A stretch of DNA of 64,000 nucleotides from Clostridiales bacterium (GCA_015056545.1 SVGE01000001.1:93906-157905), one strand, 5' to 3'; positions 8,476-24,855 are shown, counted from the stretch's first letter. Numbers and translations are program-made. Notes: generated by a model from the sequence alone, not told the origin.

Positions 8476-9273
8476 TTAAAATCGATTATAATCTTTAACA
8501 TTATTTTGTTTGCACCAATTAGCAAAGCCTTCTCTATTTTTACTTCTGAAATCATCTATAGAATATTCAGGATAATTCCACTTTTTATATATTTTGAAAT
8601 TACATAATTTTGCGTAATCCTCAAATTTAAAAGTAGTTCTGCGATTTGTGTCATATATATATTCACCTTTCATTATAAAGGCATGTGCATATAAAGGCAT
8701 ATCTTCTTCAAACACATCAGTTACTGCTCCCCATACAAGTGTAACATCCTTTAATATTCTTGCCAATTCTAATGAATAATAATAGCACAAATGGTTTGAT
8801 TCATTAGATAAAAGCTCCTCATAAAACCACTTGTCATATTTCTTTATTTTTTTCCACTCTTTACGAGTAACTGCCTTACTACCCGAAATTACAACTATTT
8901 TTCTAATAAAATCAGTTATTTTATGTGTTCTGTCAATAAAATCTTTATGTTTTCTTTTTTTAATTAATGTATAGTCAAAATTTCCTTTACCAACTTTATC
9001 TTCAATTTCAGCAACTTTTTCCATATTCTTTTTCTTTAGCCATTCTAATAATACAAAAAAATAAGCTATAAAAAGTAAAAGATATCCAACTATTTTGAAC
9101 TTAAATAAGATAAATATAACAGAAAATATTGTACAAATCATTGATAAAACAATATACCGATAAATTAAAAAAGTATACAAACCACATTCCAATTTATACA
9201 TTTGAGCAAATAAATCTAACTCATCTGTATATATATCATCCTTATAAAAAAACTTAGTAACTGCTGCTAACAT
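8476..9273 (-). CDS. Hypothetical membrane protein
   Basis: 265 aa with two N-terminal TM helices; the C-terminal domain matches no family I recognise. Confidence 0.35.
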   Translation of the reverse strand: MLAAVTKFFYKDDIYTDELDLFAQMYKLECGLYTFLIYRYIVLSMICTIFSVIFILFKFKIVGYLLLFIAYFFVLLEWLKKKNMEKVAEIEDKVGKGNFDYTLIKKRKHKDFIDRTHKITDFIRKIVVISGSKAVTRKEWKKIKKYDKWFYEELLSNESNHLCYYYSLELARILKDVTLVWGAVTDVFEEDMPLYAHAFIMKGEYIYDTNRRTTFKFEDYAKLCNFKIYKKWNYPEYSIDDFRSKNREGFANWCKQNNVKDYNRF

Positions 9274-15974: not shown

Positions 15975-16802
15975 TTACATAAATAGATAGAAATACGCAA
16001 AAATAACTGGTGCCACAAATAATGTTGAGTCAAATCTATCTAACATACCACCATGTCCTGGAAAAAACTTACCAAAGTCTTTAATATCAACATATCTTTT
16101 TATACTTGATGCAAATAAATCACCAATTTGAGATATTATAGAACAAATTATTGCTAAAACAATCATATGTACATATGAAATATTAGCCATAAAGAAACTG
16201 TTTAACACATATGTTAATAATCCAAAACCTATTATTCCCCCAAATATTCCACCAATACTACCTTCAATTGTTTTTTTAGGGCTAATTGAAGTAAATTTAT
16301 GTTTTCCAATTAATTTTCCAACACAAAAAGCTAATATATCTGGTGCCCATGAACCTACAAATATATACCATATATATAATTTACCATTATTTAATTCATA
16401 TAAATTTGTAATTGTTTCAAACATTATAATTGAATAAAATATTTGAAGTAAAGTAACTGATACATCTATAATTGAATATTTATGATGTTTAAAAGTATAT
16501 ATACTAAATAACAATATTAAAATTCCTGGAAGTAAAATATATACTAAAATTTCCAACATGTTAATTGGTAGCATATTCATATATTTTAAATTATTTAAAA
16601 CAAATATTGCTATAACTGTTAAATAACTAACAATACTTATAGGTTTAATTTGTTTATTATTAAATGCTTTGCTCATTTCTCTTACAGCAATTAATATAAA
16701 TATTGAGATTACTACATTTACCATATATATATTAGTACATAATATTACCCATGCAGTAAATGCAAATCCTAAAATAAGTGACATAATTCTTTTCGCTAAC
16801 AT
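15975..16802 (-). CDS. cdsA: Phosphatidate cytidylyltransferase
   Basis: Polytopic membrane protein with the C-terminal ...KDFGKFFPGHGGMLDRFDS signature. Confidence 0.85.
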   Translation of the reverse strand: MLAKRIMSLILGFAFTAWVILCTNIYMVNVVISIFILIAVREMSKAFNNKQIKPISIVSYLTVIAIFVLNNLKYMNMLPINMLEILVYILLPGILILLFSIYTFKHHKYSIIDVSVTLLQIFYSIIMFETITNLYELNNGKLYIWYIFVGSWAPDILAFCVGKLIGKHKFTSISPKKTIEGSIGGIFGGIIGFGLLTYVLNSFFMANISYVHMIVLAIICSIISQIGDLFASSIKRYVDIKDFGKFFPGHGGMLDRFDSTLFVAPVIFAYFYLFM

Positions 16803-17500
16803 TATTTTCCTCCAAACTTTCTATTTCTTCTTTGATATTCTTCAATTGCTTTTTCTAATTCATCTTCATTAAAATCTGGCCAATAACAATTTGTAAAATA
16901 CATTTCTGCATATGATAATTGCCATGGCAAGTAATTACTAACACGTATTTGTCCACTAGTTCTTATCATTAAATCTACATCTGTTGATGTAAATAATTCT
17001 TTTGAAAAGATTTGTTCATTTATTTCATCAACATTTATCTCATTATTAATTACCTTATTTATAATATTTTTTGTTGCATTTAATATTTCTTGTCTTCCAC
17101 CATAATTTAAAGCCATATTAAACTTCATTTTATTACAATTATATGTTTCTTCTTCAACTTTTATAATTGTCTTTCTCAAAAATTCTGGTAATTCTTCTTT
17201 TGTTCCCAATTGAGTAAATTTTATATCTGAATAATTTGATGTAAAAGAAGAAATAAAATCATTATATATTTTCATAAGCCAATTAACTTCTTCTTTGCTA
17301 CGCTTCCAATTTTCTGTTGAGAAAGCATAAAATGTAACTTCATTAATACCTAATTTAACTGCATGTTTAATGATTTTATCTAATGCAATAACTAATTTTA
17401 AATGGCCTTTCATAGGGTCTAGGCCTTTGTTTTTAGCCCATGTTCTATTACCATCCATTATTAATGCAATATGATTAGGTAAATTATTAGTATCTATCAT
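16802..17500 (-). CDS. Isoprenyl transferase (UppS-family paralog 2)
   Basis: DGNRTWAK, YAFSTENWKRS and RTSGQIRVSNYLPWQ motifs. Its start overlaps the stop of the upstream uppS by 1 nt. Confidence 0.8.
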   Translation of the reverse strand: MIDTNNLPNHIALIMDGNRTWAKNKGLDPMKGHLKLVIALDKIIKHAVKLGINEVTFYAFSTENWKRSKEEVNWLMKIYNDFISSFTSNYSDIKFTQLGTKEELPEFLRKTIIKVEEETYNCNKMKFNMALNYGGRQEILNATKNIINKVINNEINVDEINEQIFSKELFTSTDVDLMIRTSGQIRVSNYLPWQLSYAEMYFTNCYWPDFNEDELEKAIEEYQRRNRKFGGK

Positions 17501-18216
17501 TATTTTCCTCCAAATTTTCTGTTTCTCTTTTGATATTCTTTAATTGCCAAATCTAGTTCATTCTCTTTAAAATCTGGCCAATAATCATCTGTAAAATACA
17601 TTTCTGCATATGATAATTGCCATGGTAGAAAATTACTTACTCTAATTTCACCACTAGTTCTTATCATTAAATCTACATCTGGTGAATCATAGGTATATAG
17701 ACAAGTTTCAAATATTTTTTCGTCTATATCTTCTAATTTAATTTCACCACTTTGAACTTTTTCAGTAAGCAATTTAGTTGCATGAATTATTTCATCTCTA
17801 CCACCATAATTTAAAGCTATATTGAATTGAAGTCCTGTATTATTTTTTGTATTTTCTTCAATTCTTTTTATACCTTCTTGAAAAGATGGTCTAAGTCTAG
17901 TTATATCCCCAATAACTCTTATTTTAATATTATCTTTTTTATTATTTTTATCAAAATCATTTATATATTTTTCTAGTAAATCCATTAACCAATCTACTTC
18001 TTCTTTACTACGTTTCCAATTTTCTGTTGAAAAAGCATATACAGTTAAATATTTAATTCCTATTTTATTACAATATTTTGCTACTATTTCAAGTGTTTTA
18101 GCACCTTCTGTATGTCCTAATTTTCCTGGCATACCTTTTTCTTTTGCCCATCTTCTGTTTCCATCCATAATAATAGCTATATGTTTAGGTAAATTTGTAC
18201 TATCAATTTGGTTCAT
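17500..18216 (-). CDS. uppS: Undecaprenyl-diphosphate synthase
   Basis: DGNRRWAK, YAFSTENWKRS and RTSGEIRVSNFLPWQ motifs. Confidence 0.85.
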   Translation of the reverse strand: MNQIDSTNLPKHIAIIMDGNRRWAKEKGMPGKLGHTEGAKTLEIVAKYCNKIGIKYLTVYAFSTENWKRSKEEVDWLMDLLEKYINDFDKNNKKDNIKIRVIGDITRLRPSFQEGIKRIEENTKNNTGLQFNIALNYGGRDEIIHATKLLTEKVQSGEIKLEDIDEKIFETCLYTYDSPDVDLMIRTSGEIRVSNFLPWQLSYAEMYFTDDYWPDFKENELDLAIKEYQKRNRKFGGK

Positions 18217-18229
18217 ATATTACCTCCAA

Positions 18230-18781
18230 TTATATAGACATTATTTCTTTTTCCTTTTTCTCTAATTCTACATCAATTTGTTTAGTATATTTATCTGTTA
18301 ATTTTTGAATTTCATCTTCTGCATTTCTTAAATCATCTTCTGTTATTTCAGAAGCTTTTTGTTTTTGTTTATATACGTCTATACTATCTCTTCTAATATT
18401 TCTAATTACAATTTTAGCATCTTCAGCTATTTTCTTAATATCTTTTGCTATTTCTTTTCTTCTATCTTCTGTTAATTCTGGGAATGTTAATCTAATTACA
18501 TTACCATCATTTATTGGATTTATACCTATATCTGATTTTTGTATTTCTTTTTCAATTTCTTTAAGTAAGCTTTTATCCCATGGTTGAATAACTATTAATC
18601 TAGCTTCAGGAACAGAAACAGATGCCACTTGATTAATTGGTGTTGGTGTTCCATAATATTCAACATTTAATTTATTTAATATTGCAGGATTTGCTCTTCC
18701 TGCTCTAATAGCTCCCAAATTTTCAATATACACATTAAGTGATTTTTTCATTTTTTCTTCAATTTCAATATATTCTGACAT
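18230..18781 (-). CDS. frr: Ribosome recycling factor
   Basis: 183 aa, ...RLTFPELTEDRRKEIAKDIKK... Confidence 0.9.
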   Translation of the reverse strand: MSEYIEIEEKMKKSLNVYIENLGAIRAGRANPAILNKLNVEYYGTPTPINQVASVSVPEARLIVIQPWDKSLLKEIEKEIQKSDIGINPINDGNVIRLTFPELTEDRRKEIAKDIKKIAEDAKIVIRNIRRDSIDVYKQKQKASEITEDDLRNAEDEIQKLTDKYTKQIDVELEKKEKEIMSI

Positions 18782-18911
18782 AAATTTGTCTCTCCCTTCA
18801 ATTTATTTTTATTCGTTTATACTATATCATTTTTTATATATAAAGTAAAGAGAAATTAATATATTTTAGAGCAATTTAATTCAAAAAAATGTTGAAATAA
18901 CAGTATTTATG

Positions 18912-18940
18912 TTTACATAATTTGTTTAGTGTGATATAAT
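18912..18940 (+). promoter_or_regulatory. Strong sigma-A promoter TTTACA-17-TGaTATAAT for the five-gene operon
   Basis: tttaca (18912-18917), a 17-nt spacer, an extended -10 tgaTATAAT (18935-18940), and the SD ggaggt before the ATG at 19003. Confidence 0.55.
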
Positions 18941-19002
18941 AGAAAAGTAAAAAAATTTTTAATTTTGCTCATAAAAATTATTTTTTTGGAGGTAGACAAA
19001 AT

Positions 19003-19335
19003 ATGAAAGGTTATAATGAAAACGAATTACGGGCTTTACTTAAAGACAAAGAAAAACAATTAAAAGAATTAACACAGCAAACCGATGATGTTCTCGAAAC
19101 TTTAAACATGTTAAAACATCCTTCTTCTCCTATGGCGAGTATTCCAAATGAAACAATTAAAAATTTGGAAGAAACTCTTGATATATATGAGAAAAAACGT
19201 GAAAGACTTACTCTTGTTATTAATTGCGTAAAAGATAATCTGCGTAAAATGCACAATGCTAAGATAGAATATGAAAAAATATATAAATCTAATTTTAAAG
19301 ATTCAATGTTTTATCTTAAACAATTTAAAATATAA
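19003..19335 (+). CDS. Small coiled-coil protein (paralog family member A)
   Basis: 110 aa with SD ggagg. All helical heptads; similar architecture to the genes at 19971 and 20300. Confidence 0.55.
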   Translation: MKGYNENELRALLKDKEKQLKELTQQTDDVLETLNMLKHPSSPMASIPNETIKNLEETLDIYEKKRERLTLVINCVKDNLRKMHNAKIEYEKIYKSNFKDSMFYLKQFKI

Positions 19336-19349
19336 AGGAGCAAAGAATC

Positions 19350-19739
19350 ATGTCATTAACACTTACTAACAAAGAGCGTATTGAAAAAGCAAAAAAAATT
19401 CTCGAAAACAATGATTATCTTTTTGCTCTTTCAAAATTTGAACACAAAGAAACTGTTAAATTCGGAAAATTTTTAAGAGATTATTTTATTCAACCACATG
19501 ACAAATCTTTTATCTATGTCGTGTTATCTCCTAAAGAAATAACTAAAATTGAAAAAAACTTCAAAAATAAAATGGGAAATAATTATGTGTATTTTGATAC
19601 AATTATTTGTCCAATTTTAGGAGATAAAGTTTTACACCGTTTTAGGTCTTCAACTTCGACCTGTTTGGTTAAATATTTTATGGATGATGAAAAAAACATT
19701 CACATTTACCAAGAATTGTATAAAGGAGTTTTAAAATGA
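19350..19739 (+). CDS. Hypothetical 129-aa protein
   Basis: SD aaaggag before the ATG. Its stop overlaps the next start (atga at 19736). Confidence 0.5.
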   Translation: MSLTLTNKERIEKAKKILENNDYLFALSKFEHKETVKFGKFLRDYFIQPHDKSFIYVVLSPKEITKIEKNFKNKMGNNYVYFDTIICPILGDKVLHRFRSSTSTCLVKYFMDDEKNIHIYQELYKGVLK

Positions 19740-19984
19740 AAACAGCTGAAATTTCAACATTATCATATTTTTCCGGCGTAAAAACAGCAATGGAAGTATT
19801 GCTTGAATTAGGAGAAATTTATTGTAAAACATTTGAAACAGATAATATTCCATTTGAATTTTTAAAACCTCTTTTTGAAGAAAGTATAAAAAATGCAAAA
19901 GATCGTATTTCTGAATACCCAAATGGTAATGGTCTCTTAAATCAATTAAATAAAAATGGAGGAAAGCTCAATGTTATACAATAA
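19736..19984 (+). CDS. Hypothetical 82-aa protein
   Basis: Translationally coupled to the upstream gene; Gly/Asn-rich C-terminus. Confidence 0.45.
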   Translation: MKTAEISTLSYFSGVKTAMEVLLELGEIYCKTFETDNIPFEFLKPLFEESIKNAKDRISEYPNGNGLLNQLNKNGGKLNVIQ

Positions 19985-20285
19985 AAGCAAGTTAACTCAA
20001 TTACTTGAAAAGAAGAAAAACGAAAAAGAAGAATTGCTTCTTGAAATCAATTCATCTAAAAAGCAAATATATGCAGTTTCTTCTTCTGAGGAAATTGAAG
20101 ATGACTCCATATTTACCGATTTAAGAAAAGCAGAAGAAAAACTTAAAATGGTTAACTTAATAATAACTGAGGGGTCTCTTCAAATAAGAAATGTCGAAAA
20201 TCTTGAAAAAAGAATTTCTGACCTTGAAGAACTTCATACAGACTTATTCAAATCTGCGTATCGTTTACTTAACACAAAAATTTAG
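19971..20285 (+). CDS. Small coiled-coil protein (paralog family member B)
   Basis: Likely start at the ATG at 19971, after the SD ggagga. The C-terminal ...NLEKRISDLEELHTDLFKSAYRLLN resembles the gene at 20300. Confidence 0.5.
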   Translation: MLYNKSKLTQLLEKKKNEKEELLLEINSSKKQIYAVSSSEEIEDDSIFTDLRKAEEKLKMVNLIITEGSLQIRNVENLEKRISDLEELHTDLFKSAYRLLNTKI

Positions 20286-20299
20286 AAAGGATAAATAAT

Positions 20300-20602
20300 A
20301 TGAAAACGATTGAAAAAGAAATACATGCTTTTATCAAGAAAAAGAAAGAAGAAAGAAAAGAACTTTTGGAACAATCAATAAAACTCAATGAACAAATACG
20401 AAATGCAACAAGCAAAGAAGAGTTTGAAAAAGCAAAAGAACGTGTACGTCAAGTAAATTCCGAGATTAATAAGATAACCTTTATAATTGATAATGTTCAG
20501 AAACAACTTAAAAATGTTGATGCAATTAAAGAAAATATAAAAAATCTCGAAACAATTTGTTCAGATATGCTTAGTTCAATTTTTTCTTTATTAAACAAAT
20601 AA
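20300..20602 (+). CDS. Small coiled-coil protein (paralog family member C)
   Basis: 100 aa with SD aaaggata. The C-terminal ...NIKNLETICSDMLSSIFSLLNK parallels the other two family members. Confidence 0.5.
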   Translation: MKTIEKEIHAFIKKKKEERKELLEQSIKLNEQIRNATSKEEFEKAKERVRQVNSEINKITFIIDNVQKQLKNVDAIKENIKNLETICSDMLSSIFSLLNK

Positions 20603-20604
20603 AT

Positions 20605-20650
20605 TAAAAAAAGATTATAAATACATATATTGTATCTATAATCTTTTTAT
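20605..20650. terminator. Bidirectional terminator between the small-protein operon and rny
   Basis: aagattata-aatacatatattg-tatctataatctt flanked by an A run and a T run. Confidence 0.55.
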
Positions 20651-20652
20651 TT

Positions 20653-22194
20653 TTATTTAGCATATTCTATTGCTCTTGTTTCTCTTAAAATATTAACTTT
20701 AATTTGTCCTGGATATTCCATTTCATTTTCAATTCTTTTAACTATATCTCTTGATAATAATACCATATCACTATCAGAAATCGCTTCAGGATTTACTACT
20801 ATTCTTATTTCTCTACCAGCTTGTATTGCATATGAATTTTCAACACCTTTGAATGAATTTGCTATTTCTTCTAATTGTGTTAATCTCTTAATATATGCTT
20901 CTAATGTTTCTCTTCTAGCACCAGGTCTTGAAGCAGATATAGCATCAGCAGCTTGTACAATAACAGCAATAATTGAAGTTGGTTCAACATCTCCATGATG
21001 TGCTTCTACTGCATTAATAACAACATTGTTTTCTCTATGTTTTCTTAATACATCAACACCTATTTCAACATGTGTACCTTCCATTTCATGGTCTAATGCC
21101 TTACCAATATCATGTAATAATCCTGCACGTTTTGCAAGTTTAACATCTAAACCTAATTCACCAGCCATAATACCAGCAATTTGAGCAACTTCCATTGAAT
21201 GATTTAAAACATTTTGTCCATAACTTGTTCTATATTTTAGTTTACCTATTAATTTAACTAAATCTGGATCTAGGCCATGTACACCTGTTTCAAATGTAGC
21301 TCTTTCTCCCTCTTCTTTGATTGTTTCAAGAATTTCTTCTTTAGCTTTTTCAACCATTTCTTCAATTTTACCTGGATGAATTCTTCCATCTTGCATTAAT
21401 TTTTCAATTGCTATTCTTGCAACTTCTCTTCTTAAAGGATCAAAACTAGATATTACGATTGCTTCTGGTGTATCATCAATTATTAAATCTATACCAGTTA
21501 ATGTCTCAATAGCTTTAATATTTCTACCTTCTCTACCAATTAATCTACCTTTCATATCATCATTTGGTAAATTAACAGTAGAAACTGTTATCTCAGAAGA
21601 ATGATCAGCTGCACATTTTTGTACTGCATATGTAATTAATTCTTTTGCTTTCTTATTAGCTTCGTCTTTTGCTTGTTCTGTTGTTGTTCTAATAATTGTA
21701 GCCGCTTCTTCTTTTACTTCATCTCTAACTTTTTGAAGCACCATTTCTTTTGCTTCATCTTCTGTTAATCTAGATATTTTAAATAATTCATCTAATTGTT
21801 GCTCTTTTATTTTGTCTAATTCTTTTTGTCTTTCATCTAAATCATTTTCTTTTTTCTCAATTGCTTGTTCCTTTTTCTCTAAATTATCAATTTTCCTATC
21901 TAGATTTTCTTCTTTTTGCATAAATCTTCTTTCTTGATTTTGAATTTCTTGTCTTCTTTCTTTTACTTCTCTATCAAACTCTGCTTTTTCACTTAATATT
22001 TCTTCTTTTGCTTTTAAAACTTCTTCTTTTCTAATATTATCTGAAGCTTTTTTTGCATCATCAATAATTTTTTCCGCTTCTTTTTTTGCACTTTCAAGAT
22101 TTTCTTTATCTTGGTTGTCTTTAATAATTATTGTTAATATAACTGAAACTACAGCTGTAAGCAGAGAAGCAATAATTGTAACTGTTAAATTCAA
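20653..22194 (-). CDS. rny: Ribonuclease Y
   Basis: N-terminal TM helix, coiled coil, KH domain and HD domain ([13 protein letters not shown]...LLHDIGK). Confidence 0.9.
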
Positions 22195-22426
22195 TTATTA
22201 CACCTCCTATTAATTTTTCAATGTACAAAGTTTATTCTATTTATATTTATTTATTATATATTAAATTTAAATAAATCTACTTTTACACATATATTGTATA
22301 ATTTAATAATCATAATGTCAAGACAAAAATATGATTAATTATGTAAATTTTTGTAGAAGTATGAGATATATGCTAAACAGCAGTATTTCAACTATTAGAA
22401 TAATATAAAAATAACTATAAAAATTA

Positions 22427-22457
22427 ATTGACAAATAACATAAAACTATTCTATAAT
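22427..22457 (+). promoter_or_regulatory. Candidate promoter for the type III antitoxin-toxin transcript
   Basis: ttgaca (22427-22432), a 19-nt spacer, tataat (22452-22457); the repeats begin 15 nt downstream. Confidence 0.4.
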
Positions 22458-22471
22458 GTATATACTAAAAT

Positions 22472-22590
22472 AAGTTGGGTGACCTCATACCACAGTTGAG
22501 GACTATATAAAGTTGGGTGACCTCATACCACAGTTGAGGACTATATAAAATTTGGTGACCTCATACCACAGTTGAGGACTATAAAAGTTT
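22472..22590 (+). ncRNA. ToxI-like type III antitoxin RNA: 3.3 tandem direct repeats of 38 nt
   Basis: R1 22472-22509 and R2 22510-22547 are identical (aagttgggtgacctcataccacagttgaggactatata). R3 22548-22585 has 3 mismatches, then a partial fourth unit follows. Each unit contains an internal cctca/tgagg stem. Confidence 0.7.
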
Positions 22591-22620
22591 GGATAGCTTT
22601 CAACTTAGCTATCCTTTTAT
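22591..22620 (+). terminator. Terminator hairpin between antitoxin repeats and toxin gene
   Basis: ggatagct-ttcaactt-agctatcc followed by ttttatatt. This matches the terminator separating toxI from toxN in type III TA loci. Confidence 0.65.
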
Positions 22621-22646
22621 ATTATTCAGAAAGGAGGTATAATAAA

Positions 22647-23189
22647 ATGACAAAAAAAGATTTGATTCTAATTAGAGTTGAACCTAAATATATTGATTAT
22701 CTCAGACAATTTGATTCAAATGTACAATTAAATTCTGAACACTTACATAAAGAAAATAAACCATTTGTAGGTATTATCTTCAAAATCAATTTTCTTGATT
22801 ATTTTATTCCCATATCATCTAATAAAAAAGTGAAACTTATTAAAATCTATAATAATTATTTATTAAATAATACAAAACCTATTGATATGTTCTTTATTGA
22901 AGAAATAATTAATAACAAAAGAAGATTACTCTCTGTTCTCAATATAAATAATATGGTTCCTATCCCTGAGATAGCTAAAATATATTTTAATATAAATGAA
23001 GATAAAGACACTTCTTTGCTTCGTAAAGAAATACTATTTTGTAACAATCACAAACAAGATATTTTTAAAAATTCTCTTAGAGTCTATAATTCTGTTATAA
23101 ATCATACTTGGACTTCACTTGAAAGAAGATGTTGCAACTTCAAATTATTAGAAGAAAAATCTATCTTATATCAAAAATCATTTAAATAA
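22647..23189 (+). CDS. ToxN/AbiQ-family type III toxin endoribonuclease
   Basis: SD aggagg 8 nt before the ATG at 22647. The 180-aa product has N-terminal ...PKYIDYLRQFDSNV...KPFVGIIFKI..YFIPISS and C-terminal CNFKLLEEKS segments resembling ToxN (YIEYLKEFDDKV...KAFIGIVLEI..YLAPLTS...CNFSLLEEK). The longer ORF from 22572 is rejected. Confidence 0.7.
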   Translation: MTKKDLILIRVEPKYIDYLRQFDSNVQLNSEHLHKENKPFVGIIFKINFLDYFIPISSNKKVKLIKIYNNYLLNNTKPIDMFFIEEIINNKRRLLSVLNINNMVPIPEIAKIYFNINEDKDTSLLRKEILFCNNHKQDIFKNSLRVYNSVINHTWTSLERRCCNFKLLEEKSILYQKSFK

Positions 23190-23210
23190 ATTCTATTTAT
23201 CTCCAATATA

Positions 23211-23239
23211 TTGATATTTATACTTTTTTGTATTATAAT
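23211..23239 (+). promoter_or_regulatory. Promoter TTGATA-17-TATAAT for the Cys-rich small gene
   Basis: ttgata (23211-23216), a 17-nt spacer, tataat (23234-23239). Confidence 0.5.
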
Positions 23240-23289
23240 CTATCCATAAAAATATTTTACATATTTCAATAAACTATTATTTTGAAAGG

Positions 23290-23517
23290 ATGGATTATAT
23301 GTTTACTTGTGAATTCAAAAAACAATGTATTAAAGATAACAATAATCTTTTGAAACGCATTGAATTACCTAAATGTAATAAAGGTGTGTGTCATTCTGGT
23401 TGTCACAGATACAATTATTATCACACAAAACACTTTAGTCAAAGTTTAACACCTGAAGTATTAACAAAAATAAAAGAAATAGATGAAAACACAACACATA
23501 ATAGTTATTTAGGGTAA
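23290..23517 (+). CDS. Small Cys/His-rich protein (75 aa)
   Basis: SD gaaaggatgg. Five Cys (CEFKKQC...CNKGVCHSGCH) suggest metal binding. It has its own promoter and terminator. Confidence 0.45.
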   Translation: MDYMFTCEFKKQCIKDNNNLLKRIELPKCNKGVCHSGCHRYNYYHTKHFSQSLTPEVLTKIKEIDENTTHNSYLG

Positions 23518-23527
23518 AAAAACATAA

Positions 23528-23560
23528 AAAGGAATCGTATATTTTATATATGATTCCTTT
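23528..23560. terminator. Bidirectional terminator
   Basis: aaaggaatc-gtatattttatatat-gattccttt. Confidence 0.55.
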
Positions 23561-23565
23561 CATCT

Positions 23566-24855
23566 TTATAATTCCTCTACAATAAGCATATTATTTTTTA
23601 TATCAACTACTCTACCTTTTACTATTTCATTGCTTTGCTTATCTGTTTTAATTTTAGTATGTAAATAGTTTAAAGTAAATCCTTTCATATATTCATTATC
23701 TTTTTCTTCAAGTAATACTTCAACTTGTTTTCCTATGTATTTTTTTAAGTGACTAATTTCATTTGTATCACTTAAATTAAGCAATTTATCACTTCTGCTT
23801 GTTTTAATTTGTGGACTTACTTGATTATCCATTCTAGATGCAACAGTTCCCTTTCTAATTGAATATTTGAATACATGCATTTTATTTAAATTAATTTGTT
23901 TTAAAAAGTTATATGTTATTTCAAAATCTTCATCAGTTTCTCCTGGGAAGCCAACTATTATATCTGTTGTTATATTTGCTTCTGGATAATATTCTCTAAT
24001 TATATTAACTATATTTTTTATTTGCTCAGTTGTATATTTTCTATTCATAGTTTTTAATGTTTTATCATTTCCAGACTGAAGCGATAAATGAAAATGTGGA
24101 CAAAATTTATCTAATTTTATTAATCTTTCCATAAATTCTTTTGTTATTATAGTTGGTTCTAATGAACCTAGTCTTATACGCTTTAATCCTTCAATTCTAT
24201 TAATTTTTTCTAATAAATCAATTAATGAAATATCATTATCTAAATCTTTTCCATATGAGCATACATGTATACCAGTTATTACTATTTCTTTATATCCATT
24301 ATTTGCAATACTTTGCATTTCATTTATTGAATCTTCAAATGGTTTACTACGTATTTTCCCTCTTGCATATGGAATAATACAATAACTGCAGTAATTATTG
24401 CATCCATCTTGTACTTTCACAATAGCTCTTGTTTTTTCATAGAATGTAGTTAACTCTTCTGTTTCATATTTATCTTGTTTCATTATATCTGAAACAAATA
24501 TTTTGTCATTTTTATCTTTTAAATATTTTTCAATATACTTTACAATTTGCTTTTTATCTTCATTTCCAAGAATTAAATCAATTTCATCTATTTTTTCAAG
24601 TTCATCTTTTCCAATTTGTGCTAAACAACCAACTGCAACGACTATTCCATTGATATTTTTCTTTTTTGCACTTCTAAGCATTTGTCTAGATTTTCTATCA
24701 CTCATATTTGTTACAGTACAAGTATTTATTACATATATATCTGCTTTATCATTAAAAGAAACTATTTGGTATCCTTTATTTATAAATTGCCCAATCATTA
24801 CATTAGTTTCATATTGATTCACTTTACAACCTAATGTATTAAATGCTACTTTCAT
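23566..24855 (-). CDS. mtaB: tRNA t6A37 methylthiotransferase MtaB (MiaB-like radical SAM with TRAM domain)
   Basis: N-terminal MTTase domain (LGCKVNQYE), radical SAM CNNYCSYC motif and a C-terminal TRAM domain. Confidence 0.8.
   Translation of the reverse strand: MKVAFNTLGCKVNQYETNVMIGQFINKGYQIVSFNDKADIYVINTCTVTNMSDRKSRQMLRSAKKKNINGIVVAVGCLAQIGKDELEKIDEIDLILGNEDKKQIVKYIEKYLKDKNDKIFVSDIMKQDKYETEELTTFYEKTRAIVKVQDGCNNYCSYCIIPYARGKIRSKPFEDSINEMQSIANNGYKEIVITGIHVCSYGKDLDNDISLIDLLEKINRIEGLKRIRLGSLEPTIITKEFMERLIKLDKFCPHFHLSLQSGNDKTLKTMNRKYTTEQIKNIVNIIREYYPEANITTDIIVGFPGETDEDFEITYNFLKQINLNKMHVFKYSIRKGTVASRMDNQVSPQIKTSRSDKLLNLSDTNEISHLKKYIGKQVEVLLEEKDNEYMKGFTLNYLHTKIKTDKQSNEIVKGRVVDIKNNMLIVEEL

What the first reader, a model, noticed from the sequence alone, without database searches (positions are those of the whole stretch)
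18912..20650. Compact five-gene operon of small coiled-coil proteins replacing pyrH upstream of frr
A strong promoter (TTTACA-17-TGaTATAAT) drives five tightly packed genes of 110, 129, 82, 104 and 100 aa. The genes overlap or are translationally coupled, and each has a good SD. Three of them (19003, 19971, 20300) are paralogs: all-helical, about 100 aa, with shared N-terminal (LL.KKK.E.EELL) and C-terminal (NLE...L......LLN) blocks. Codon usage here has visibly more G/C-ending codons (cgg, ctc, gcg, ccg, ctg) than the flanking core genes, which suggests horizontal acquisition. The cluster sits where pyrH would normally precede frr, and it is bounded by a bidirectional terminator shared with rny. 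I cannot match any of the five proteins to a known family. It could be a multi-component toxin-antitoxin or defence module, or a phage-derived cassette.
Basis: partly seen in the sequence, partly recalled or inferred. Interest (0 to 1): 0.7.

Follow-up and report, generated by a model that had tools for sequence, protein, structure and literature searches.

The report
Species-restricted orphan operon of small helical proteins
Five tightly packed small genes between frr and rny are real, under selection and probably acquired from elsewhere, but no relative was found outside this one uncultured gut Clostridia species, so their function is unknown and the find is a fairly ordinary orphan operon.

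Summary
Five co-oriented genes (110, 129, 82, 104 and 100 aa) each have a Shine-Dalgarno site and are coupled or overlapping. A near-consensus extended -10 promoter precedes them, and a strong bidirectional hairpin shared with rny follows. They occupy the spot where 69 of 72 relatives carry pyrH directly upstream of frr. D and E are clear paralogues; A is only a borderline third. GC3 is 17.9% against 9.8% in host genes (p=2e-8), which fits foreign origin. A second strain gives pN/pS of 0.24 (p=0.003), so the genes are real. None of the five matches Pfam, NCBIfam, PHROGs or PADLOC. Wide protein-database searches were run for A, B, D and E and found only their own clusters; C was checked only in narrower collections. 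Nothing matched in phage, plasmid or viral-contig collections, or in 117 frr loci from other organisms. E models confidently as a two-helix hairpin, whose fold matches (ESCRT-III hairpins on top) are generic. B could not be modelled. The toxin-antitoxin, defence or phage readings are neither shown nor excluded; the only hint is an AbiQ/ToxIN system on the other side of rny. My best guess is an acquired accessory conflict module built around a helical hetero-oligomer, held at low confidence. Interest is modest.

The parts
18912..18940 (+). Candidate sigma-70-type promoter: TTTACA, 17 nt, TG-extended TATAAT
   Evidence: 11 of 12 positions match, with TG before the -10. It is the second best site in 18200-23600. 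Site density in this AT-rich DNA equals that of shuffles, so it is a candidate only.
19003..19335 (+). Gene A, 110 aa, pI 8.9, helical; a probable distant paralogue of D and E
   Evidence: SD is GGAGG. Paralogy is borderline. Only its own cluster was found among 5.8 billion clusters. NCBI's name 'DUF342' rests on a sub-threshold FapA match of 17.1 bits against a cutoff of 31.
19350..19739 (+). Gene B, 129 aa, pI 9.3, mixed alpha/beta, no family
   Evidence: The AlphaFold model is unusable (pLDDT 39.7). Against strain 2 it has 4 synonymous and 3 non-synonymous changes.
19736..19984 (+). Gene C, 82 aa, pI 5.05; its start overlaps B's stop (ATGA)
   Evidence: No family match. No hit in the PDB, in viral contigs, or among phage and plasmid records. 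GC3 is host-like at 0.108.
19971..20285 (+). Gene D, 104 aa, pI 5.5, helical hairpin paralogue of E; overlaps C by 14 nt
   Evidence: It has the highest GC3 of the five, 0.238.
20300..20602 (+). Gene E, 100 aa, pI 9.2, two-helix hairpin (helix 2-34, helix 39-99)
   Evidence: AlphaFold pLDDT is 94.5. phmmer against 1.84 billion representatives finds only itself. It is identical in both strains.
20608..20648 (.). Bidirectional intrinsic terminator shared by the operon and the convergent rny gene
   Evidence: I16: 18-nt arms, 94% complementary, 5-nt loop. Searches give -16.9 and -20.1 kcal/mol (z -5.6 and -8.3), with an A run on one side and a T run on the other.

Best explanation
Shown: these are five real protein-coding genes in one transcription unit. 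They are present in every contig of this one uncultured, 25%-GC, spore-forming Clostridia species that I could retrieve, and absent from all sampled relatives. They sit at the breakpoint that separated frr from the otherwise near-universal pyrH-frr pair. Their synonymous-site composition differs from the host's, so they were most likely acquired from a somewhat less AT-rich donor. All five products are small, have no strongly hydrophobic stretch, and match no known family. D and E, and probably A, are duplicated two-helix hairpins.

Inferred: because helix 2 is nearly twice as long as helix 1, its C-terminal part probably has no partner within the same chain. That part carries the conserved NLE...L...LLN block. 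It would let the hairpins bundle with each other into a hetero-oligomer. That oligomer would hold or regulate the translationally coupled pair B (basic, alpha/beta, candidate effector) and C (small, acidic, candidate neutraliser or adaptor).

My best guess for the biological role is an accessory conflict module of the phage-defence or toxin-immunity type, like the AbiQ/ToxIN system on the other side of rny.

Confidence by step: real operon about 0.9; foreign origin about 0.65; hairpin hetero-oligomer about 0.4; conflict or defence role about 0.25.
For: Coding: five consecutive open frames of 82-129 codons occur in DNA where roughly 9% of random codons are stops. All have SD sites and are coupled. 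pN/pS against a 98.3%-identical strain is 0.24 (9 synonymous, 9 non-synonymous; binomial p 0.003). D and E are paralogous.

One unit: a single strong promoter candidate and a single terminator, with no internal terminator.

Restricted distribution: A, B, D and E find only their own 1-3 member clusters. The five proteins find nothing in 117 frr loci from other organisms. All 23 contigs with the identical frr carry the cassette in the same context.

Breakpoint: pyrH is adjacent to frr in 69 of 72 relatives and absent from the window.

Foreign composition: GC3 is 17.9% against 9.8%, and CGN Arg codons are 59% against 8%.

Hairpin fold: the E model has pLDDT 94.5.

Context: AbiQ/ToxIN lies at 22472-23189, also with raised GC3 and also on the minority strand.

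B and C: pI 9.3 and 5.05 with an ATGA overlap.
Against: No protein matches any defence, toxin, antitoxin or phage family. The housekeeping gene rny separates the operon from ToxIN. There is no integrase, tRNA or flanking repeat. I found no strain lacking the cassette, so it has not been shown to be variable. B could not be modelled and has no recognisable catalytic motif. No multimer prediction was possible, so the oligomer is pure inference. The protruding half of helix 2 is inferred from helix lengths only; I did not inspect the model's coordinates. Raised GC3 could also reflect selection on expression and not foreign origin, and gene C has host-like GC3. Short coiled-coil proteins diverge fast, and my searches cannot see relatives below about 30% identity in databases this large. 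E's own paralogue D did not reach the reporting threshold.
Confidence: 0.4

Rival explanations
1. These are vertically inherited, fast-evolving host proteins with a structural or regulatory job, for example coiled-coil adaptors in cell division, sporulation or RNA decay next to RNase Y. On this view they look orphan only because short coiled-coil sequences lose detectable similarity quickly.
For: The cassette is present in every retrieved contig of the species and is under purifying selection. The promoter looks strong and constitutive. Small coiled-coil proteins are common in division and sporulation machinery (general knowledge). The cassette shares a terminator with rny. Searches in huge databases are insensitive for 100-aa proteins.
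Against: GC3 and Arg codon use differ sharply from 51 host genes. The closest relative, with 80% identical frr and conserved downstream synteny, has pyrH and purC at this site and no trace of the genes. There is no similarity to RNase Y's own coiled coil. The only lead towards YlbF/YmcA-type partners of RNase Y was a weak match to a DUF964 structure (2oeq), which I recall, unchecked, to be of that type (E 0.32).
Confidence: 0.25
2. It is a leftover cargo block (moron) of a phage or other mobile element. It would be kept because it is harmless or mildly useful, with no organised multi-protein function in the host.
For: Foreign composition. Small orphan genes with a strong promoter and their own terminator are typical of phage morons (general knowledge). 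It sits on the minority strand at a rearrangement breakpoint.
Against: No hit in 50,697 phage genomes, PHROGs, IMG/VR or BFVD. There are no neighbouring phage genes, integrase or att-like repeats. pN/pS of 0.24 and an invariant E argue for a maintained function.
Confidence: 0.15
3. The hairpins are small secreted or helper proteins of a type VII secretion-like system (WXG100, or the Lap helpers of LXG toxins), with B and C as immunity-type proteins.
For: They are helical hairpins of about 100 aa, in several paralogous copies, in a Firmicute, next to small alpha/beta proteins. This gene pattern resembles LXG toxin loci (from memory).
Against: No WXG100, LXG, DUF3130 or DUF3958 match appears even at E<=10. 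None of the five proteins contains a single Trp, so there is no WXG motif. The operon has no toxin-sized gene.
Confidence: 0.03
4. The ORFs are chance open frames or dead genes.
For: No relatives were found anywhere.
Against: Roughly 9% of random codons here are stops, so each 100-codon open frame has a chance of about 1e-4, and there are five in a row with SD sites. Synonymous changes are in excess (p 0.003). D and E are paralogous.
Confidence: 0.02

Closest known systems
ESCRT-III / Snf7 / CHMP / Vipp1-PspA alpha1-alpha2/3 helical hairpin (structural resemblance only)
WXG100 / Lap-type helical hairpin proteins of Firmicute type VII secretion and LXG toxin loci
   Same: Size, two-helix hairpin fold, several divergent copies in one operon, and small alpha/beta neighbours.
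   Different: No family match, no Trp at all, no LXG toxin gene, and no secretion genes seen in the window.
Two-gene toxin-antitoxin or toxin-immunity pairs (for B and C)
   Same: A basic 129-aa protein is followed by an acidic 82-aa protein with overlapping stop and start (ATGA). They are carried on compositionally foreign DNA and sit near another toxin-antitoxin system.
   Different: Neither protein matches any toxin, antitoxin or immunity family. Three extra hairpin genes share the operon. Toxicity has not been tested.
Single small helical anti-phage proteins such as Rip1
   Same: Rip1 is a small helical protein that, according to a review (PMC13434031), both senses phage terminase rings and forms pores. 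Rip1 chains appear among the generic Foldseek matches (ranks 21 and 26).
   Different: Foldseek E is 1.6-1.9, which is not significant. Rip1 is a prophage-encoded single gene of Proteobacteria. Here there is no prophage context and there are five genes.

Membership tests
WXG100 / ESAT-6 family (type VII secretion substrates) | Match to Pfam WXG100 (PF06013) and a Trp-x-Gly motif in the loop between the two helices | tested here: not met
   No WXG100 match even at E<=10. None of the five proteins contains Trp.
LXG toxin module with Lap helper hairpins | An LXG-domain toxin gene of several hundred aa next to the helper genes, and DUF3130 / DUF3958 / TIGR04197 matches | tested here: not met
   The largest gene in the operon is 129 aa. 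No such Pfam or NCBIfam matches.
Known anti-phage defence systems (PADLOC-DB v2) | Significant match of at least one component to a defence-system model | tested here: not met
   The best match is LmuB, E 4e-4 at 17 bits, over the coiled-coil arm of an SMC-like ATPase. All hits are coiled-coil noise, and B and C have none.
Type II toxin-antitoxin systems | A recognisable toxin fold or family and a DNA-binding antitoxin | tested here: not met
   No Pfam, NCBIfam or PADLOC match for B or C. No PDB sequence match.
Type II toxin-antitoxin systems | Toxicity of one partner that is neutralised by the other | not testable with these tools
   This needs expression experiments. Only the coupled basic-acidic arrangement of B and C is seen.
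Phage protein families / phage-derived cassette | Similarity to proteins of sequenced phages, or location in a prophage | tested here: not met
   PHROGs gives noise only. tblastn against 50,697 phage records finds no match at E<=1. IMG/VR scans with A, B, C and the A/D/E alignment find nothing real. BFVD fold search has no hit at E<=0.001. The flanking genes are housekeeping.
ESCRT-III / PspA / Vipp1 superfamily | alpha1-alpha2/3 hairpin geometry | tested here: met
ESCRT-III / PspA / Vipp1 superfamily | Sequence-family match (Snf7 PF03357 or PspA_IM30 PF04012) and further helices alpha4-alpha5 after the hairpin | tested here: not met
   No such Pfam match. The proteins end with the hairpin at 100-110 aa.
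FapA / DUF342 (the name NCBI gives protein A) | Score above Pfam's gathering threshold over the beta-solenoid domain | tested here: not met
   17.1 bits against a cutoff of 31, covering profile positions 148-240 of 272. The name was seen.
Prefoldin | Pfam prefoldin match and beta-hairpins between the two coiled-coil helices | tested here: not met
   Prefoldin_2 scores 9.1 bits against a 27.6 cutoff for A. The E model has a 4-residue loop and no strands.
YlbF/YmcA (Com_YlbF) partners of RNase Y | Com_YlbF family match | tested here: not met
   No such family name appears in the Pfam output at E<=10. My lead was the A/D/E profile's weak match to a DUF964 structure, 2oeq, at E 0.32 over 62 residues. 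That DUF964 is the YlbF/YmcA-type family is my recollection, not checked.

The most novel reading that the evidence does not exclude
A, D and E would found a previously unseen family of minimal two-helix hairpin proteins. They would co-assemble through the part of the long helix that lacks an in-chain partner into a hetero-polymer or ring, in the manner of ESCRT-III or Rip1. Together with the B-C pair they would form a new multi-component anti-phage or toxin-delivery system that this species acquired next to its AbiQ/ToxIN.
Probability: 0.12. Interest if true: 0.6.

Novelty: categorically new. Interest (0 to 1): 0.3.

Why it matters
If the five proteins work together, they would define a new small-protein complex, possibly a new kind of conflict system, built almost entirely from helical hairpins.

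The label 'categorically new' is meant in a weak sense. Nothing known matches, but the function is unknown, and species-restricted orphan operons are common in metagenome-assembled genomes.

The locus is also a clean example of a broken pyrH-frr linkage, and of foreign genes settling at a rearrangement breakpoint on both sides of rny.

Tried and rejected
Family scans: Pfam, PHROGs, PADLOC and NCBIfam scans of all five proteins gave only sub-threshold coiled-coil noise.

Large protein databases: word-indexed searches of 5.8 billion clusters with B, D and A, and an exhaustive phmmer of E against 1.84 billion representatives, returned only the proteins' own clusters. C was not put through either search.

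Phages and plasmids: tblastn of the concatenated five proteins found nothing at E<=1.

IMG/VR: scans with B, C, A and the A/D/E alignment gave one hit, which lies inside a 1712-aa tail-fibre gene and is spurious.

PDB sequence searches: IncA at E 0.007 and DUF964 at E 0.32 for the A/D/E profile. I judge both to be composition noise.

Structure: B as a single sequence gave pLDDT 39.7 and was not used for fold search. The afdb50 fold library was unavailable.

Relatives: 75 frr loci from GTDB species and 41 from metagenomes contain no cassette homologue by tblastn, phmmer or a D/E/A profile.

Other checks:
- A link to RNase Y's coiled coil was rejected.
- Rfam found no RNA element in 18000-24000.
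- No flanking direct or inverted repeats suggest a mobile element.
- No further paralogues occur in the window.
- The 143-aa version of B in JGI data is a gene-calling read-through of the TGA stop on identical DNA, not a variant.

Full report
**Anatomy.** The window comes from a very AT-rich organism (about 25% GC) whose genes run almost entirely on the - strand. Between frr (18230-18781, -) and rny (20653-22194, -) lie five + strand ORFs:
- A, 19003-19335, 110 aa
- B, 19350-19739, 129 aa
- C, 19736-19984, 82 aa
- D, 19971-20285, 104 aa
- E, 20300-20602, 100 aa

. Gene callers on independent contigs report the same five genes. Each start is preceded at 7-10 nt by a Shine-Dalgarno site: GGAGG, AAGGAG, AAGGAG, GGAGGA, AAGGA. 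B and C overlap by ATGA, C and D by 14 nt, and the other two gaps are 14 nt.

The alternative 109-aa start of D at 19956 has no SD, so 19971 is preferred. The promoter candidate at 18912-18940 (TTTACA, 17 nt, TG-extended TATAAT) matches 11 of 12 positions. Such matches are no more frequent here than in shuffled sequence, so it is a good candidate and not a proof. The operon ends in an 18-bp hairpin (20608-20648) flanked by an A run and a T run. The hairpin folds well on both strands (-16.9 and -20.1 kcal/mol, z -5.6 and -8.3), so it is a bidirectional terminator shared with rny.

**Are they genes?** With roughly 9% of random codons being stops at this base composition, a 100-codon open frame has a chance of about 1e-4. 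Five in a row with SD sites are not chance.

A second strain (L080/L081, 98.3% nucleotide identity) carries the same cassette. The differences are 9 synonymous and 9 non-synonymous over 295 synonymous and 1253 non-synonymous sites. That gives pN/pS of 0.24, with a binomial p of 0.003 for an excess of synonymous change. E is identical in both strains. The genes are therefore real and under purifying selection, though the number of substitutions is small.

**Paralogy.** D and E are clear paralogues: BLASTP gives 31% identity over 77 columns at E=7e-8, and alignment scores exceed 2000 shuffles by z of 8.5-9.9.

A aligns colinearly with both at 24% identity. BLASTP is not significant. The global score gives z of about 3.6 (3 of 2000 shuffles reach it). 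hhalign gives P 7.8e-4 but a probability of only 25%. I treat A as a probable, unproven third member. B and C resemble nothing in the operon. No further paralogue exists in the window.

**Composition.** Third-position GC is 17.9% in the cassette (530 codons) against 9.8% in 51 host genes (17,518 codons), Fisher p 1.8e-8. CGN codons supply 10 of 17 arginines against 43 of 555 (p 2.4e-7). Host genes on the + strand have GC3 of 8-13%, so this is not a strand effect. Gene C alone is host-like (0.108).

**Position.** pyrH is not in the window. Of 72 frr loci from other GTDB species with enough upstream sequence:
- 69 have pyrH within 600 nt upstream of frr on the same strand;
- the closest relative (L005, frr 80% identical, downstream synteny conserved including the tandem uppS pair) has rpsB-tsf-pyrH-purC-frr;
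- the remaining two, both distant, have no pyrH upstream

.

None of these loci, nor 41 metagenome loci, has rny near frr or any homologue of A-E. This was tested by tblastn, by phmmer and by a D/E/A profile against 5041 ORFs. The cassette therefore lies at a lineage-specific rearrangement breakpoint. All 23 retrieved contigs that encode the identical frr carry the cassette in the same context.

**Search for relatives.** No Pfam, NCBIfam, PHROGs or PADLOC model is matched above noise. What appears are coiled-coil look-alikes such as Rad50, SMC, LmuB and tape-measure proteins.

A, B and D find only their own cluster among 5.8 billion clusters. E finds only itself in an exhaustive phmmer of 1.84 billion representatives. 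C was not put through either of those two searches. The clusters hold 1-3 sequences from about 17 contigs. NCBI lists the proteins as MBE5821074-78 of a 'Clostridiales bacterium' MAG. Four are named hypothetical; A is named 'DUF342', which rests on a FapA match of 17.1 bits against a threshold of 31.

Phage genomes, plasmids and IMG/VR contigs give nothing real.

One caveat applies. For 100-residue proteins in databases this large, relatives at or below about 30% identity fall under the reporting threshold. D itself was not reported for query E.

**Structure.** E, modelled with the small A/D/E alignment, gives a confident model (pLDDT 94.5, pTM 0.70). It has helix 2-34, a four-residue turn, then a helix at 39-99. 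I did not inspect the coordinates. Because helix 2 is nearly twice as long as helix 1, its C-terminal part probably has no partner within the chain. That part carries the block conserved between D and E (NV..I...I..LE......S....LLN).
- Foldseek against the PDB and against viral models has no hit at E<=0.001.
- B as a single sequence gave pLDDT 39.7 and was not used further.

None of the five proteins has a strongly hydrophobic stretch or any tryptophan. Their pI values are 8.9, 9.3, 5.05, 5.5 and 9.2.

**Interpretation.** What is shown: a real operon, restricted to one species, compositionally foreign, encoding family-less small proteins, sitting at the pyrH/frr breakpoint.

What is inferred: the hairpins bundle through the unpartnered part of helix 2 into a hetero-oligomer. 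The coupled basic-acidic pair B-C is an effector-neutraliser pair. The role is in genetic conflict.

The last point rests only on context. On the other side of rny there is a complete type III toxin-antitoxin (AbiQ/ToxIN) system, also on the + strand and also with raised GC3. I put about 0.25 on a defence or toxin-type role.

Rivals:
- Fast-evolving host structural or regulatory coiled-coil proteins, 0.25. Composition and absence from the closest relative argue against this.
- A functionless mobile-element remnant, 0.15. Purifying selection and the lack of any phage signal argue against this.
- A type VII secretion-like set, 0.03. No Trp, no family match and no toxin gene.
- Chance ORFs, 0.02.

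**Comparison with known systems and verdict.** No defining feature of WXG100/LXG modules, type II toxin-antitoxin systems, PADLOC defence systems, phage families, prefoldin, FapA or YlbF/YmcA is met. Only the non-discriminating hairpin geometry of ESCRT-III is met.

The operon therefore belongs to no known kind. That is a negative result, and such orphan operons are frequent in uncultured genomes. Its interpretation is partly supported: the foreign origin holds, while the function remains open. I rate interest at 0.3.

Noticed in passing
window 22428-23189 (+): A complete type III toxin-antitoxin (AbiQ/ToxIN) system. It has a perfect 12/12 promoter at 22428-22457, 3.1 direct repeats of 38 nt at 22472-22589 (the antitoxin RNA), a terminator hairpin at 22591-22614, and toxN/abiQ at 22647-23189 (Pfam ToxN_toxin 7.5e-37; PADLOC AbiQ 4.1e-31). 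The repeats match no Rfam family. GC3 is 0.155, above the host's.
   Followed up: partly
window 23290-23560 (+): A 75-aa Cys/His-rich ORF just after toxN, followed by a 15-bp hairpin at 23528-23560. It matches no Pfam or PADLOC family, and its GC3 of 0.171 is also above the host's.
   Followed up: partly
window 16802-18216 (-); L005 8599-10013: Two tandem uppS (undecaprenyl diphosphate synthase-type prenyltransferase) paralogues follow frr. The closest relative, L005, shares the duplication; more distant relatives have a single copy.
   Followed up: partly
L125 5001-5432 (same DNA as window 19350-19781): JGI data list protein B as 143 aa on DNA that is 100% identical to the window. The extra 14 residues come from reading through B's TGA stop, so the gene caller evidently picked a code-4 model for this 25%-GC contig. 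Host genes are intact under table 11, so this is an annotation artefact.
   Followed up: yes
window 8476-9273 (-): A 265-aa ORF with the highest GC3 of the long ORFs (0.184) and no Pfam or PADLOC match. It may be another acquired gene.
   Followed up: partly
L005 5881-8552: In the closest sequenced relative, a purC (SAICAR synthetase-like) gene and a 62-aa opposite-strand ORF sit between pyrH and frr. The pyrH-frr junction is therefore already loosened in this lineage.
   Followed up: partly
window 20725-20785 (3' end of rny) versus L081: Twelve substitutions fall within 60 nt at the very end of contig L081, against about 1.3% divergence across the cassette. This is either a contig-end assembly artefact or a recombination edge.
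   Followed up: no
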